In this document: positions 28,024 through 29,143 of the stretch, piece after piece
How positions within the stretch are numbered: position 1 is the stretch's first letter
Layout: every line of letters starts with the position of its first letter
DNA from: an uncultured Eubacteriales bacterium
GTDB lineage: Bacteria; Bacillota; Clostridia; TANB77; RGIG9151
DNA: 30,406 bases
NCBI GenBank assembly: GCA_964640345.1
Contig: CAZXFU010000007.1
Coordinates: 1 to 30,406, forward strand
Direction: 5' to 3'
Notes under the pieces: generated by a model
Seen by the model: only the letters and a program-made list of their open reading frames with translations
The model's database searches: none
What the model was told of the DNA's origin: nothing
Made by a program: the position numbers and the translations under genes

Positions 28024-28410
28024 ATGATTAAGATACATACCTTATTTTCAGTTATATTAGCGACTTCATTACTATTTACAACATCATTTGCTGTCGATCC
28101 GCTTCCAAACGCCGGTAACTTTATATTGGCGGGTAGAGACGGAAATGCAAACACTTCCGTATTAGTAGAGAAAATGGATGAGAGTATCGGACCCGGGTTA
28201 GTATCTATACTGCAGCTTCTATACCAAATAGGCGTTATAGTCGCCATTTGCGTATTGGTTTTTATGGGAATAAAAATATTAATCGCGTCTCCGCAACAAA
28301 AAGCTCAGCTAAAAGCCGGGCTGATACCGTATTTTATAGGATTGTTATTATTTATAGCGGGTGTGCCAATCGCTATATTAATAATAAATATAATTTTATC
28401 AATTTTTTAA
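28024..28410 (+). CDS. VirB2/TrbC-pilin-like small secreted two-TM protein, paralogue 1
   Basis: Signal peptide MIKIHTLFSVILATSLLFTTSFA/VD, then TM1, charged loop SPQQKAQLKAGL, then TM2. It aligns with the two following ORFs. AGGAG directly abuts the ATG with 0-nt spacing, so initiation may be inefficient. Confidence 0.6.
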   Translation: MIKIHTLFSVILATSLLFTTSFAVDPLPNAGNFILAGRDGNANTSVLVEKMDESIGPGLVSILQLLYQIGVIVAICVLVFMGIKILIASPQQKAQLKAGLIPYFIGLLLFIAGVPIAILIINIILSIF

Positions 28411-28432
28411 ACACTATAAGGAGGTTATCTTT

Positions 28433-28783
28433 ATGAAAAAGTCATTAAAGATTTTAAGTTTAGTTTTAGTATTTGTTTTGGCATTGGCTCCGGTTGTGAC
28501 ATTAGCAGTACCTTTTGAAGCTGAGCCTACAGAAGTGCCTGGTATTGAAAAGTTTGCAGGTCCTGTTGGTTCTGCAATCACAGTAATTCAATGGGTTGGA
28601 TACGCAGTTGCAGTAATAATGATTTTATGGTTAGGAGTTCAATGGATGATTGCTCAGCCTGCCAAAAAAGCTGAATTAAAAGGAAAAATGTGGTCTATGG
28701 CTGTTGGTATTGTATTGTTAGTTGCTGGTGTGTCTATACTAAAAGTAGTTTGGAATATGGCAGAATCTGCTAACATTGGATAA
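28433..28783 (+). CDS. VirB2/TrbC-pilin-like small secreted two-TM protein, paralogue 2 (best RBS)
   Basis: AAGGAGG lies 8 nt before the ATG. Signal peptide MKKSLKILSLVLVFVLALAPVVTLA/VP, TM1 (VGYAVAVIMILWLGVQWMIA), loop QPAKKAELKGKMW, TM2 (AVGIVLLVAGVSIL). Confidence 0.65.
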   Translation: MKKSLKILSLVLVFVLALAPVVTLAVPFEAEPTEVPGIEKFAGPVGSAITVIQWVGYAVAVIMILWLGVQWMIAQPAKKAELKGKMWSMAVGIVLLVAGVSILKVVWNMAESANIG

Positions 28784-28789
28784 TGAGAC

Positions 28790-29143
28790 ATGAAAAAGAT
28801 ATTTAAATTAGCACTTTTTTCATTGGTAGTATTTTTAATGATAAACGTTTCAAATGCTACCGAAATAAAAGACTATTTTATGAATGCTACGGCACATGAC
28901 TTAGACTTTACCAACTTAAGAGATACTATTTTTACCGTTCTTAGATACCTGGGCTATGGAATAGCTGTATGCATTATATTGTTTATAGGCGTTCAGTTTC
29001 TTACGGCAAACTCTCAAAAAAGAGCTGTACTAAAAGAGAAATTATGGTTAATTATACTAGGTGTACTTGTACTCACTTTAGGCGTGCCGTTCTTAAAGGT
29101 GTTGACAGACATTATTATAAAATTAGCGAGAAGTCTTGTTTAA
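28790..29143 (+). CDS. VirB2/TrbC-pilin-like small secreted two-TM protein, paralogue 3
   Basis: Signal peptide MKKIFKLALFSLVVFLMINVSNA/TE, TM1 (LGYGIAVCIILFIGVQFLTA), loop NSQKRAVLKEKLW, TM2 (ILGVLVLTLGVPFL). It starts 6 nt after paralogue 2. Confidence 0.6.
   Translation: MKKIFKLALFSLVVFLMINVSNATEIKDYFMNATAHDLDFTNLRDTIFTVLRYLGYGIAVCIILFIGVQFLTANSQKRAVLKEKLWLIILGVLVLTLGVPFLKVLTDIIIKLARSLV

What the first reader, a model, noticed from the sequence alone, without database searches (positions are those of the whole stretch)
28024..29143. Three tandem, diverged paralogues with pilin architecture and very different translation signals
All three ORFs (128, 116 and 117 aa) share the same plan. Each has a cleavable signal peptide (SFA/VD, TLA/VP, SNA/TE) and a variable mature N-terminus of 20-45 aa. 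This is followed by TM1 ending G(V/I)(Q/K).., a basic loop with the shared pattern x-x-(Q/K)-K-(A/R)-x-L-K-x-x-(L/M)-(W/I), and TM2 with a shared L.(A/L)GVP/S motif. By my hand alignment, paralogues 2 and 3 share roughly 40 percent identity over about 60 core residues, and paralogue 1 is more distant. They have no lipobox, no LPXTG and no class III (type IV pilin) signal. Paralogue 2 has an ideal AAGGAGG-8 nt-ATG. Paralogue 1 has AGGAG touching its ATG. Paralogue 3 has only a weak GAGA and starts 6 nt after the stop of paralogue 2. This suggests one major and two minor subunits, or a heteromeric filament or channel. Most T4SS loci carry a single VirB2 gene, so a triplet is unusual.
Basis: partly seen in the sequence, partly recalled or inferred. 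Interest (0 to 1): 0.7.

Follow-up and report, generated by a model that had tools for sequence, protein, structure and literature searches.

The report
VirB2-like pilin triplet in Clostridia
Three small neighbouring genes encode diverged copies of the pilus-subunit protein of type IV secretion machines, and they head a chromosomally fixed secretion-machine operon in uncultured gut and rumen Clostridia, a Gram-positive group that recent reviews say lacks such subunits.

Summary
Three tandem ORFs (128, 116 and 117 aa) each have a signal peptide, a two-helix hairpin and a basic loop, and the quoted ribosome-binding details are correct. They are true paralogues (hhalign 98.8-99.8%). They belong to the TrbC/VirB2 and T4SS_pilin families: P1 and P2 pass Pfam's gathering cut-offs, and P3 is linked through profiles.

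They open an operon of about 13.5 kb: pilin x3, PrgI/VirB3-like, TrsD-like, VirB4, a giant VirB6-like protein, a giant M23 wall hydrolase and three small membrane proteins. Housekeeping genes flank it on both sides. No relaxase, coupling protein or integrase was seen in the operon or the flanks read. The same neighbourhood recurs in genomes whose P2 is only 43-71% identical.

VirB4 is as conserved as core genes (dN/dS 0.04). P2, P3 and the VirB6-like protein evolve fast. A hairpin follows the pilin genes in all 10 loci. It is a canonical terminator in 35 of 35 related loci, where arrays hold 1-7 genes, most often 3.

Best reading: Sec-exported pilin-like subunits, with P2 the major one, of a domesticated, probably non-conjugative Gram-positive T4SS. 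This matches the pilin arrays known from Patescibacteria. It is a new member of a known kind, and the function is unproven.

The parts
27952..27980 (+). Sigma-A type promoter TTGTCA-17 nt-TGcTATAAT, 43 nt upstream of the P1 ATG
   Evidence: It matches 11 of 12 consensus positions and has an extended -10. An equivalent TTG(T/C)CA-17-TAnAAT lies 30-51 nt upstream of P1 in 9 of 10 orthologous loci, with the TG in 8 of them.
28024..28410 (+). P1, 128 aa, pilin-like paralogue 1. Signal peptide to about residue 23 (SFA/VD), then a conserved LPNAxN motif, helix 1, the loop SPQQKAQLKAG and helix 2. The protein ends just after helix 2.
   Evidence: PF18895 T4SS_pilin scores 30.4 bits against a cut-off of 26.6. 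The AF2 model has pLDDT 77.8 with helices at 4-21, 30-38, 44-87 and 90-127. An orthologue is present in all 10 loci. dN/dS is 0.20. hhalign against the P2 family gives 98.8%.
28418..28424 (+). Shine-Dalgarno AAGGAGG of P2, 8 nt before the ATG
   Evidence: Read directly from the sequence. A strong SD, AAGGAGG in 9 loci and AGGGAGG in L011, lies 7-9 nt before the P2 ATG in all 10 orthologous loci.
28433..28783 (+). P2, 116 aa, pilin-like paralogue 2 and the proposed major subunit. Signal peptide to residue 25 (TLA/VP), a hypervariable acidic mature N-terminus, a conserved core WLGIQWMxAQPAKKAELKGKMWSMAxGI and a variable C-tail.
   Evidence: PF04956 TrbC scores 29.8 (cut-off 27.9) and PF18895 scores 29.1. 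The AF2 model has pLDDT 74.9 with helices at 2-24, 39-73 and 76-113. 49 homologue clusters were found. Alignment A1 shows an invariant loop. dN/dS is 0.18 in the core and about 2 in residues 26-47.
28790..29143 (+). P3, 117 aa, pilin-like paralogue 3. Signal peptide to residue 23 (SNA/TE), a conserved IKDYF...LDF mature N-terminus and the loop NSQKRAVLKEK. It starts 6 nt after the P2 stop, so translational coupling is likely.
   Evidence: It falls below the Pfam cut-offs on its own (22.8 and 22.3 bits). hhalign of the P3 family against the P2 family gives 99.8%, E 7e-29. The L012 orthologue scores 33.7 bits on PF18895. dN/dS is 0.21.
29159..29184 (+). 11-bp GC-rich hairpin between the pilin array and the machinery genes. 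It has no U-tract here and is read as an attenuator or mRNA 3' stabiliser.
   Evidence: Found. A hairpin lies at this position in all 10 orthologous loci, with different sequences in different clades. 4 of 19 pairs show compensatory changes within the window's clade. In 35 of 35 distinct related loci the same gap holds a canonical stem plus U-run terminator.
29211..29564 (+). PrgI/VirB3-like 2-TM protein, 117 aa, with a GGAGGTG SD
   Evidence: It is 36% identical (E 2e-17) to the L044 protein, which passes Pfam PrgI (39.4 bits, cut-off 27). It is conserved in all loci.
29564..30406 (+). TrsD-like protein, a free-standing homologue of the VirB4 N-terminal domain (357 aa in full). Its start overlaps the previous stop (TAATG) and the window end cuts it off.
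   Evidence: Translation. The full gene is on L001 with a precomputed PF26593 TraC-like hit. It gives a weak match to VirB4_plasma model positions 101-233. It is followed on L001 by VirB4 (666 aa), which aligns to the CD1110 family model from position 180 onwards.

Best explanation
P1, P2 and P3 are three anciently diverged members of the TrbC/VirB2 (T4SS_pilin) superfamily. They form the pilin-array module of a Gram-positive-type type IV secretion apparatus. The full operon is pilin x3, PrgI/VirB3-like, TrsD-like, VirB4, a giant VirB6-like protein, a giant M23 wall hydrolase and three small membrane proteins. This apparatus has become a fixed, vertically inherited chromosomal locus in a clade of uncultured gut and rumen Clostridia.

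Proposed mechanism, with shown and inferred steps marked:
1. A conserved sigma-A promoter drives the three genes. A conserved hairpin after P3 limits read-through into the machinery genes or stabilises the pilin transcript, so pilin mRNA exceeds machinery mRNA. The anatomy is shown. The effect is inferred.
2. Each protein is exported by Sec and cut by signal peptidase I. It rests in the membrane as a helical hairpin with both ends outside and the basic loop, which carries an invariant Lys, in the cytoplasm. This is predicted.
3. The VirB4 ATPase, working with PrgI, TrsD and the VirB6-like platform, extracts the hairpins. They assemble into a short pilus or wall-spanning conduit through a hole made by the M23 hydrolase. 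This is inferred by analogy with Gram-negative VirB2 and F pili.
4. P2 is the bulk subunit. It has the universally strong SD, the most conserved core and hypervariable exposed ends. P1 and P3 are specialised minor subunits, such as a base, tip or adaptor. This is inferred.

The locus has no relaxase, coupling protein or integrase in the DNA read, and it is syntenic across diverged genomes. The machine is therefore probably not a conjugation system of a mobile element. It more likely serves a host function such as cell-cell contact, uptake or export, like the T4SS of Patescibacteria.
For: - Family membership: Pfam hits at gathering score for P1 and P2. All three pilins of the related locus L044 pass both TrbC (35-49 bits) and T4SS_pilin.
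- Paralogy.
- Hairpin fold.
- Topology charges.
- Operon content.
- Three orthologue groups are conserved in all 10 distinct loci.
- Chromosomal fixation: the same housekeeping neighbours lie on both sides in genomes with P2 at 43-71% identity. The first 27.8 kb of the window is core housekeeping.
- Purifying selection acts on the cores of all three (dN/dS 0.09-0.18), so they are real expressed genes. The exposed N-terminus of P2 has dN/dS of about 2.
- VirB4 has dN/dS 0.04 and is 83-98% identical across the clade.
- The strong P2 SD is conserved in 10 of 10 loci and the promoter in 9 of 10.
- A hairpin follows the array in 10 of 10 loci, with compensatory changes. It is a canonical terminator in 35 of 35 related loci.
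- Arrays of 1-7 genes (mode 3) precede PrgI in related loci.
- Precedent: Patescibacteria carry chromosomal, relaxase-less T4SS loci related to the MPF-FATA class, with TrsD, VirB3, VirB4, VirB6 and 2-11 diverged VirB2-like genes. These genes are essential in Southlakia (PMC12102498, PMC12857230).
Against: - There is no direct evidence of expression, processing, polymerisation or a filament.
- Foldseek against the PDB and sequence-profile searches of the PDB did not recover any solved conjugative pilin. A helical hairpin is a generic fold.
- P3 alone is below the Pfam cut-offs.
- The weak translation signals of P1 and P3 are not conserved outside the window's sub-clade, so the major/minor assignment rests mostly on P2.
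- In the window's lineage the hairpin lacks a U-tract.
- A coupling protein or relaxase could lie elsewhere in these incomplete MAGs. Only 3-10 kb of DNA beyond the operon was read on each side.
- dN/dS comes from one genome pair and short segments.
Confidence: 0.6

Rival explanations
1. The three proteins are VirB2-like but do not form an extracellular filament. They stay in or just above the membrane as lining or stalk components of the translocation channel, which is the pilus-independent role VirB2 also has in Gram-negative systems. The three paralogues would occupy distinct positions in a hetero-oligomeric ring.
For: Three distinct orthologue groups, each with its own conserved motifs, are kept across the clade. 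The VirB6-like protein carries a fourth pilin-like hairpin at its N-terminus (hhalign 91%, E 1e-6; PF18895 at 20-24 bits), which suggests hairpin-to-platform packing. The review PMC12857230 notes that VirB2 is needed for substrate transfer even without pili.
Against: A separate promoter-to-terminator unit for the pilin genes, the very strong SD on P2 and the hypervariable, positively selected exposed ends of P2 point to an abundant, surface-exposed polymer. They do not fit a fixed-stoichiometry channel part.
Confidence: 0.22
2. The paralogues are interchangeable alternative major pilins kept for antigenic or receptor variation, as proposed for Bartonella Trw and Anaplasma VirB2 arrays. They would not be parts with different roles.
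For: P2, P3 and the VirB6-like protein diverge quickly compared with the genome background. P3 has dS of 1.05 against 0.2-0.45 for its neighbours, which could reflect allele exchange. Array size varies from 1 to 7 in related loci. PMC12102498 proposes host-range versatility for the arrays in Patescibacteria.
Against: Within the clade each position holds its own conserved orthologue with diagnostic motifs: LPNAxN and PYFIGLLL in P1, QPAKKAELKGKMWSM in P2, and IKDYF..LDF in P3. P3 alone acquires a 100-160 aa C-terminal extension in one sub-clade. Copy number is fixed at three in all 10 loci.
Confidence: 0.1
3. The locus is a decaying remnant of an integrated conjugative element. On this view the ORFs are unrelated small membrane proteins, such as holin-, immunity- or exclusion-like proteins, that merely resemble pilins in composition.
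For: 2-TM hydrophobic proteins give weak compositional matches to many families. No solved pilin was retrieved. The closest plasmid-borne VirB4 proteins (40-41% identity) are on large Clostridium plasmids.
Against: - The Pfam hits reach gathering score, and the hit in relatives is full-length and strong (49 bits, E 6e-13).
- dN/dS is well below 1 for every gene, and VirB4 is as constrained as RarA and CsaB.
- The operon is intact and collinear, with conserved synteny across deep divergence.
- There are no phage matches.
Confidence: 0.04

Closest known systems
Patescibacteria (CPR) chromosomal T4SS with VirB2-like pilin arrays (Southlakia epibionticum, Wang et al. 2023; survey by Quinonero-Coronel et al. 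2025, PMC12102498)
   Same: - The host is a monoderm.
- The gene set matches: tandem diverged VirB2-like genes (reported mean identity 25%; here 28-42% in the core), PrgI/VirB3, TrsD, VirB4 and VirB6.
- The locus is chromosomal and has no relaxase in the cluster.
- The same Pfam families detect the pilins (PF04956, PF18895).
   Different: - The host here is a flagellated, spore-forming Clostridia lineage, not an ultra-small epibiont (SpoVS, YmdB and FliD/FliS lie in the flank).
- The array is fixed at three conserved orthologue groups.
- The VirB6-like protein is a giant (960-1300 aa) with its own pilin-like N-terminal hairpin.
- The wall hydrolase is a ~990-aa M23 protein.
- Whether this VirB4 falls inside or beside the Patescibacteria VirB4 clade was not tested.
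Conjugative Gram-positive T4SSs of the MPF-FATA class (pCF10 Prg, pIP501 Tra, pGO1 Trs, C. difficile CD1110-type ICEs)
   Same: The core is the same: PrgI, VirB4, VirB6-like and a cell-wall hydrolase. VirB4 matches the CD1110 family model at 210 bits. A free-standing TrsD-like protein occurs, as in the pGO1 subclass (PMC12102498).
   Different: - According to PMC12857230 and PMC12102498, those systems lack VirB2 homologues.
- They carry a T4CP and a relaxase and sit on mobile elements. Here none of these was found in the DNA read, and the locus is syntenic with housekeeping genes.
- The VirB4 score is below the equivalog cut-off of 325.
Homologous operons on large Clostridium plasmids (C. botulinum pINGR16-02E1, C. 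beijerinckii p1)
   Same: The operon is collinear: pilin-like, PrgI-like, TrsD-like, DUF87 VirB4 (40-41% identity), a VirB6-like protein with a pilin-like N-module, a hydrolase and three small TM proteins.
   Different: These operons have one pilin-like gene, not three. They are plasmid-borne and the hydrolase is C39-type. The genes are annotated only as hypothetical or DUF87.
Tandem VirB2 paralogues of Bartonella Trw and Anaplasmataceae
   Same: Both have several sequence-variable VirB2 copies in tandem beside a T4SS that lacks a coupling protein (Trw), and the exposed parts diversify (PMC12857230).
   Different: Those are Gram-negative MPF-T systems. The copies are thought to be interchangeable variants, and VirB5 is co-amplified. 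Here the host is a monoderm, there are three non-interchangeable orthologue groups and no VirB5 was found.
Agrobacterium VirB2, RP4 TrbC and F TraA conjugative pilins
   Same: They share a long signal peptide, two hydrophobic helices, a short basic loop, a size of about 70-95 aa after cleavage, and a gene next to virB3/virB4. The Pfam TrbC model matches full-length.
   Different: No sequence match to any solved pilin was detectable. Cyclisation, acetylation and lipid binding are unknown here. The cell envelope has no outer membrane.

Membership tests
TrbC/VirB2 - T4SS_pilin superfamily (Pfam PF04956, PF18895) | Match to the family HMM at or above Pfam's gathering score | tested here: met
   P1 scores 30.4 on PF18895 (cut-off 26.6). 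P2 scores 29.8 on PF04956 (cut-off 27.9) and 29.1 on PF18895. P3 alone scores 22.8 and 22.3, below the cut-offs. It is linked by hhalign at 99.8% to the P2 family, and its L012 orthologue scores 33.7 bits.
TrbC/VirB2 - T4SS_pilin superfamily (Pfam PF04956, PF18895) | Cleavable signal peptide followed by two hydrophobic helices joined by a short basic loop (helical hairpin, both ends outside) | tested here: met
   Supported by hydropathy, AF2 models of P2 and P1, loop charge of +2 to +3 and mature N-terminus charge of -3, and AxA-type cleavage sites conserved in orthologues. These are predictions only.
TrbC/VirB2 - T4SS_pilin superfamily (Pfam PF04956, PF18895) | Encoded next to virB3/virB4 in a T4SS gene cluster | tested here: met
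   The PrgI-like, TrsD-like and VirB4 genes follow immediately.
TrbC/VirB2 - T4SS_pilin superfamily (Pfam PF04956, PF18895) | Polymerises with phospholipid into a helical pilus; matured by cyclisation or acetylation | not testable with these tools
   No multimer modelling or experiment was possible. Foldseek of the monomer models was uninformative.
Patescibacteria-type chromosomal T4SS with pilin array | Two or more diverged VirB2-like genes in tandem near virB4, together with TrsD, PrgI/VirB3 and VirB6 | tested here: met
   The criteria are those of PMC12102498.
Patescibacteria-type chromosomal T4SS with pilin array | Chromosomal location with no relaxase in the cluster | tested here: met
   Housekeeping genes flank both sides, and no relaxase, T4CP or integrase domain was found in the operon or in the 3-10 kb read beyond it. 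The rest of the genome was not examined.
Patescibacteria-type chromosomal T4SS with pilin array | VirB4 falls in the monophyletic Patescibacteria VirB4 clade; the host is a Patescibacterium | tested here: not met
   The host records are titled Clostridia or Eubacteriales MAGs, and the flanks carry SpoVS, YmdB and flagellar genes. The position of VirB4 relative to the Patescibacteria clade was not tested, because no reference set was available.
Conjugative MPF-FATA T4SS of Firmicutes ICEs and plasmids | Coupling protein (VirD4/TcpA-like) and relaxase encoded with the T4SS on a mobile element | tested here: not met
   None was found in the operon or in the 3-10 kb read beyond it. The locus is syntenic across genomes with housekeeping identity of 56-98%.
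Conjugative MPF-FATA T4SS of Firmicutes ICEs and plasmids | VirB4 of a recognised conjugative equivalog family | tested here: inconclusive
   The best hit is the CD1110 family at 209.7 bits, below the cut-off of 325. The alignment starts at model position 180, and the N-domain is supplied by the separate TrsD-like ORF.
Type IV (class III signal) pilins, sortase-assembled pilins and lipoproteins | G/FxxxE prepilin motif; a C-terminal LPXTG followed by a hydrophobic segment and a charged tail; a lipobox Cys | tested here: not met
   The sequences were read directly. The 'LPNAG' in P1 lies at the mature N-terminus, not in a C-terminal sorting signal, and its Gly is not conserved.

The most novel reading that the evidence does not exclude
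A whole family of domesticated, chromosomally fixed type IV secretion machines with VirB2-like pilin arrays exists in abundant, uncultured human-gut and rumen Clostridia. The related VirB4, at 65-71% identity, occurs on at least 1000 contigs, on contigs up to 1.75 Mb, and gave at least 482 metagenome matches. On this reading these machines build a true Gram-positive T4SS pilus or conduit that serves a non-conjugative host function, such as contact-dependent exchange, uptake or adhesion. They would be the firmicute counterpart, and possibly the evolutionary source or sink, of the essential T4SS of Patescibacteria. This would overturn the textbook statement that Gram-positive T4SSs lack VirB2 pilins.
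Probability: 0.3. Interest if true: 0.8.

Novelty: new member of a known kind. Interest (0 to 1): 0.6.

Why it matters
Two recent papers say that VirB2 pilins are absent from Gram-positive T4SSs. One of them (FEMS Microbiol Rev 2025, PMC12857230) makes Patescibacteria the only exception and adds that almost all Gram-positive T4SS functions are conjugative DNA transfer. The other is Microb Genom 2025 (PMC12102498).

This locus shows the same pilin-array architecture in ordinary Clostridia. It is fixed in the chromosome, under strong purifying selection and without relaxase or coupling-protein genes in the DNA read. Close relatives are very common in human-gut metagenomes.

If these proteins really form a pilus or conduit, a new class of surface structure and a new non-conjugative T4SS function would be present in prevalent gut anaerobes. 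The origin of the T4SS of Patescibacteria could then be studied against a firmicute relative.

The collinear single-pilin operons on plasmids of cultured C. beijerinckii and C. botulinum would make the question 'can a Gram-positive T4SS build a VirB2 pilus?' testable by experiment.

Tried and rejected
- Foldseek of the P2 and P1 AF2 models against the PDB gave only generic helical hairpins, all with E > 3.
- Profile and sequence searches of PDB chains found no conjugative pilin, only designed coiled coils.
- Searching the region's DNA and the P2 protein against PLSDB plasmids, and the P2 protein against phages, found nothing. PHROGs found nothing, and Rfam found nothing above chance in 27700-29700.
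- The first metagenome scan, with the M23 protein, found nothing. I walked downstream by a homologue search plus contig look-up instead.
- I tried to assign the pilins of the wider family to the P1, P2 or P3 orthologue groups with group HMMs. The scores were too similar, so it remains unresolved whether the triplication is older than the window's clade.
- The TANB77 'conserved pilin' paper (PMC11680825) looked relevant, but it concerns a Tad (type IVc) pilus and not this locus. My guess that the related gut clade is TANB77 could not be checked and is not claimed.
- The pilin HMM did not detect the small signal-peptide-plus-2-TM proteins upstream of PrgI on the C. difficile BI1 and B. thuringiensis Bt407 plasmids. 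That resemblance is architectural only.
- A holin, immunity or sortase-pilin reading was rejected on motifs and context.
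Full report
**1. The observation**

The three ORFs are present as described: P1 at 28024-28410 (128 aa), P2 at 28433-28783 (116 aa) and P3 at 28790-29143 (117 aa), all on the + strand. 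The opposite-strand ORFs that overlap them are short and have no support.

The raw sequence confirms the translation signals:
- AAGGAGG at 28418-28424 lies 8 nt before the P2 ATG.
- AGGAG at 28019-28023 touches the P1 ATG, and an in-frame TAG just upstream means P1 cannot start earlier.
- P3 starts 6 nt after the P2 stop without a usable SD.

The shared plan is also real. Each protein has a hydrophobic N-terminal signal sequence that ends in an AxA-type site, a variable acidic segment (net charge -3 in each), helix 1, a basic loop (+2 to +3) and helix 2. Anchored on the loop, P2 and P3 share 25 of 60 core residues (42%), P1-P2 share 17 of 60 and P1-P3 share 19 of 60.

BLASTP gives E = 7e-18, 4e-11 and 5e-11 for the three pairs. 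Profile-profile comparison of the orthologue families gives 99.8% (E 7e-29) for P3 against P2 and 98.8% (E 5e-17) for P1 against P2.

**2. What the proteins are**

- Pfam places P1 in T4SS_pilin (PF18895, 30.4 bits, cut-off 26.6).
- Pfam places P2 in both TrbC/VirB2 (PF04956, 29.8 bits, cut-off 27.9) and T4SS_pilin (29.1 bits).
- P3 alone is sub-threshold at 22.8 and 22.3 bits. Its orthologue in L012 scores 33.7 bits.
- In a related locus (L044) all three array members pass both models, with up to 49 bits, E 6e-13 and a full-length alignment.
- AlphaFold2 with family alignments predicts a signal-peptide helix plus a two-helix hairpin. For P2 the pLDDT is 74.9 with helices 39-73 and 76-113. For P1 the pLDDT is 77.8 with helices 44-87 and 90-127.
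- One Lys in the loop (KAxLK) is invariant across 32 pilin-like sequences, including plasmid homologues.

Structure and sequence searches of the PDB did not recover any solved conjugative pilin. The link to VirB2 therefore rests on the Pfam profiles, the architecture and the gene context.

**3. The context**

The window's own contig (L001) and its orthologues extend the picture. The operon order is:
- P1, P2 and P3.
- A PrgI/VirB3-like protein of 117 aa. It is 36% identical (E 2e-17) to an L044 protein that passes Pfam PrgI.
- A free-standing TrsD-like homologue of the VirB4 N-domain, about 355 aa.
- VirB4 of 666 aa. It scores 210 bits on the NCBIfam CD1110 family, aligned from model position 180.
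- A VirB6-like giant of 960-1300 aa.
- An M23 peptidoglycan hydrolase of about 990 aa.
- Three small single-TM proteins.

Housekeeping genes follow the operon (RimK-like, YmdB, SpoVS, MecA, FlgN/FliS/FliD). Upstream, transcribed divergently, lie DUF5693, CsaB, WecG, YitT, RarA, HtrA, Rpe and ClpC. The rest of the window is core metabolism and translation.

No relaxase, coupling protein or integrase domain was found in the operon or in the 3-10 kb read beyond it.

The same neighbourhood occurs in every sufficiently long contig of the clade, although P2 identity falls to 43%. The host records are titled as uncultured Clostridia or Eubacteriales MAGs, and those that name a source are from rumen, deer rectum and Hadza gut samples.

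**4. Conservation and rates**

All 10 distinct loci carry exactly three pilin-like genes, and they fall into three orthologue groups with their own motifs. P1 has LPNAxN and PYFIGLLLxxAGVPIA. P2 has QPAKKAELKGKMWSM. P3 has IKDYF..LD(F/I).

I compared the window genome with its nearest relative (L004):

| Gene | Identity | dN/dS |
|---|---|---|
| Housekeeping genes | 90-98% | 0.03-0.10 |
| VirB4 | 98% | 0.04 |
| P1 | 90% | 0.20 |
| P2 | 71% | 0.47 |
| P3 | 60% | 0.21 |
| VirB6-like protein | 65% | 0.50 |

Within P2 the helical core has dN/dS of 0.18, while the mature N-terminal segment (residues 26-47) is about 2.

The genes are therefore functional, and the parts predicted to be exposed diversify quickly. 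These values come from one genome pair and short segments, so they are only indicative.

**5. Expression signals**

- A near-consensus promoter, TTGTCA-17-TGcTATAAT, lies at 27952-27980. It is conserved in 9 of 10 loci.
- The strong SD of P2 is conserved in 10 of 10 loci.
- The odd P1 signal (SD touching the ATG) and the SD-less, coupled P3 start are confined to the window's sub-clade. Other clades have normal SDs on both genes.
- After P3 there is an 11-bp GC-rich hairpin at 29159-29184. A hairpin is present at this position in all 10 loci, with different sequences in different clades and compensatory changes within the window's clade.
- In 35 of 35 distinct related loci the same gap contains a canonical stem plus U-run terminator.

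The pilin array therefore looks like its own highly expressed unit, with limited read-through into the machinery genes. This is the arrangement expected for a polymer subunit. The effect itself is inferred.

**6. The wider family**

- VirB4 is 83-98% identical within the clade, 66-67% identical to other chromosomal loci (L021, L022) and 40-41% identical to large Clostridium plasmids.
- A metagenome scan returned at least 482 matches with a VirB4-like gene. The best 80 are 65-91% identical (all but one 65-71%), and many come from human-gut assemblies on contigs up to 356 kb.
- Cluster look-ups place the same proteins on contigs of 1.2-1.75 Mb and on about 1000 contigs each. They are named only 'DUF87 domain-containing protein [Clostridia bacterium]' or 'Clostridium sp. 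CAG:567'.
- In these loci 1-7 pilin-like genes, most often 3, precede the PrgI-like gene.
- The C. botulinum and C. beijerinckii plasmids carry a collinear operon with a single pilin-like gene.
- A superfamily profile finds 8,332 cluster representatives at E <= 1e-3 in 1.84 billion proteins.

**7. Comparison with what is known**

Quinonero-Coronel et al. 2025 (PMC12102498) describe in Patescibacteria a chromosomal, mostly relaxase-less T4SS related to the MPF-FATA class. It has TrsD, VirB3/PrgI, VirB4, VirB6 and 441 arrays of 2-11 diverged VirB2-like genes, with mean identity 25%. Both that paper and the 2025 FEMS review (PMC12857230) state that Gram-positive T4SSs lack VirB2; the review names Patescibacteria as the one exception.

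The present locus has the same parts list and the same chromosomal, relaxase-less character, but it sits in Clostridia. I found no paper in the searchable library that describes this. The TANB77 'pilin' paper concerns a Tad pilus.

Tandem VirB2 arrays are also known in Bartonella Trw and Anaplasma (PMC12857230). A triplet as such is therefore not new.

**8. Verdict**

The VirB2-like identity is supported. The 'major plus two minor' idea is plausible but only partly supported. The claim that a triplet is unusual needs reframing.

The notable point is a domesticated, pilin-array-bearing T4SS in Gram-positive gut and rumen Clostridia. I class it as a new member of a known kind, namely monoderm chromosomal T4SSs with VirB2-like arrays. 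Its function is unproven, and I rate the interest at 0.6.

Noticed in passing
window 29159-29184; L021-L098 gaps between the last pilin gene and the PrgI-like gene: A hairpin separates the pilin array from the machinery genes in all 10 orthologous loci, with compensatory changes. In 35 of 35 related loci it is a canonical intrinsic terminator with a U-run. The window's lineage has the stem but no U-tract.
   Followed up: partly
window 29189-29210: RNAfold predicts a second small hairpin that pairs ATAATTAC with the GGTGGTTAT of the PrgI-like gene's SD region. It could mask that SD. It is present in L001, L004, L007 and L010.
   Followed up: no
L001 14270-17902 (protein residues ~120-195); also L004, L016, L017, L019: The giant VirB6-like protein begins with a signal peptide and then a pilin-like helical hairpin that has the same QKAxxK loop. 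PF18895 scores 20-24 bits, and hhalign against the P2 family gives 91%, E 1e-6. This makes a fourth pilin-like module, fused to the platform protein. It is followed by further predicted membrane helices and a long coiled-coil-rich region.
   Followed up: partly
window 29562-29566; L001 11132-14248: VirB4 is split. Its N-domain is a separate TrsD-like ORF of 357 aa, whose ATG overlaps the PrgI-like stop (TAATG). The 666-aa ATPase aligns to VirB4 models only from about position 180.
   Followed up: partly
L001 vs L004 (window 28790-29143 for P3): P3 has dS of 1.05, while the neighbouring genes have 0.2-0.45. This hints at allele exchange or an older polymorphism at this gene. VirB4 is as constrained as the most conserved housekeeping genes.
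   Followed up: no
L011 833-1555, L012 7723-8382, L014 1593-2426, L015 8675-9367; L013 10364-10639: In one sub-clade P3 carries a hydrophilic C-terminal extension of 100-160 aa that is predicted to lie outside the membrane. In L013, P3 has no signal peptide and begins at the conserved mature motif (MDIIDYF).
   Followed up: no
window 28019-28035: The P1 start is ambiguous. AGGAG abuts the ATG at 28024, and nine nt downstream the fourth codon is ATA here, ATG in L010 and TTG in L005. Initiation is therefore either poor at the ATG or non-canonical at codon 4.
   Followed up: partly
L022 7962-8573 and 9001-10757: In a distantly related locus, a four-gene pilin array and its T4SS operon lie about 430 nt downstream of a ComEA-like gene (SLBB + HHH_3) on the same strand. 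ComEA is a DNA receptor in natural competence. This was seen in one locus only.
   Followed up: no
protein representatives P0197-P0246: Many library proteins contain 2-16 consecutive pilin-like stretches, for example 1775 aa with 16 stretches. They are either real pilin polyproteins or tandem genes fused by gene calling, perhaps under an alternative genetic code.
   Followed up: no
L019 (C. botulinum pINGR16-02E1) 4708-17737; L020 (C. beijerinckii p1): Large Clostridium plasmids that MOB-suite types as non-mobilizable carry the collinear T4SS operon with one pilin-like gene, all annotated as hypothetical or DUF87. A 405-aa ORF that looked actin/ParM-like on inspection (not tested) lies upstream. 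C. difficile BI1 and B. thuringiensis Bt407 megaplasmids have the same core, with an undetected small signal-peptide-plus-2-TM protein upstream.
   Followed up: partly
window 25737-27812 (- strand) and upstream: The gene transcribed divergently from the pilin promoter is a 691-aa DUF5693 membrane protein. It is followed by CsaB (a pyruvyl transferase) and WecG, a cluster typical of secondary cell-wall polymer synthesis. The pairing with the T4SS operon is conserved across the clade, but no functional link was tested.
   Followed up: no
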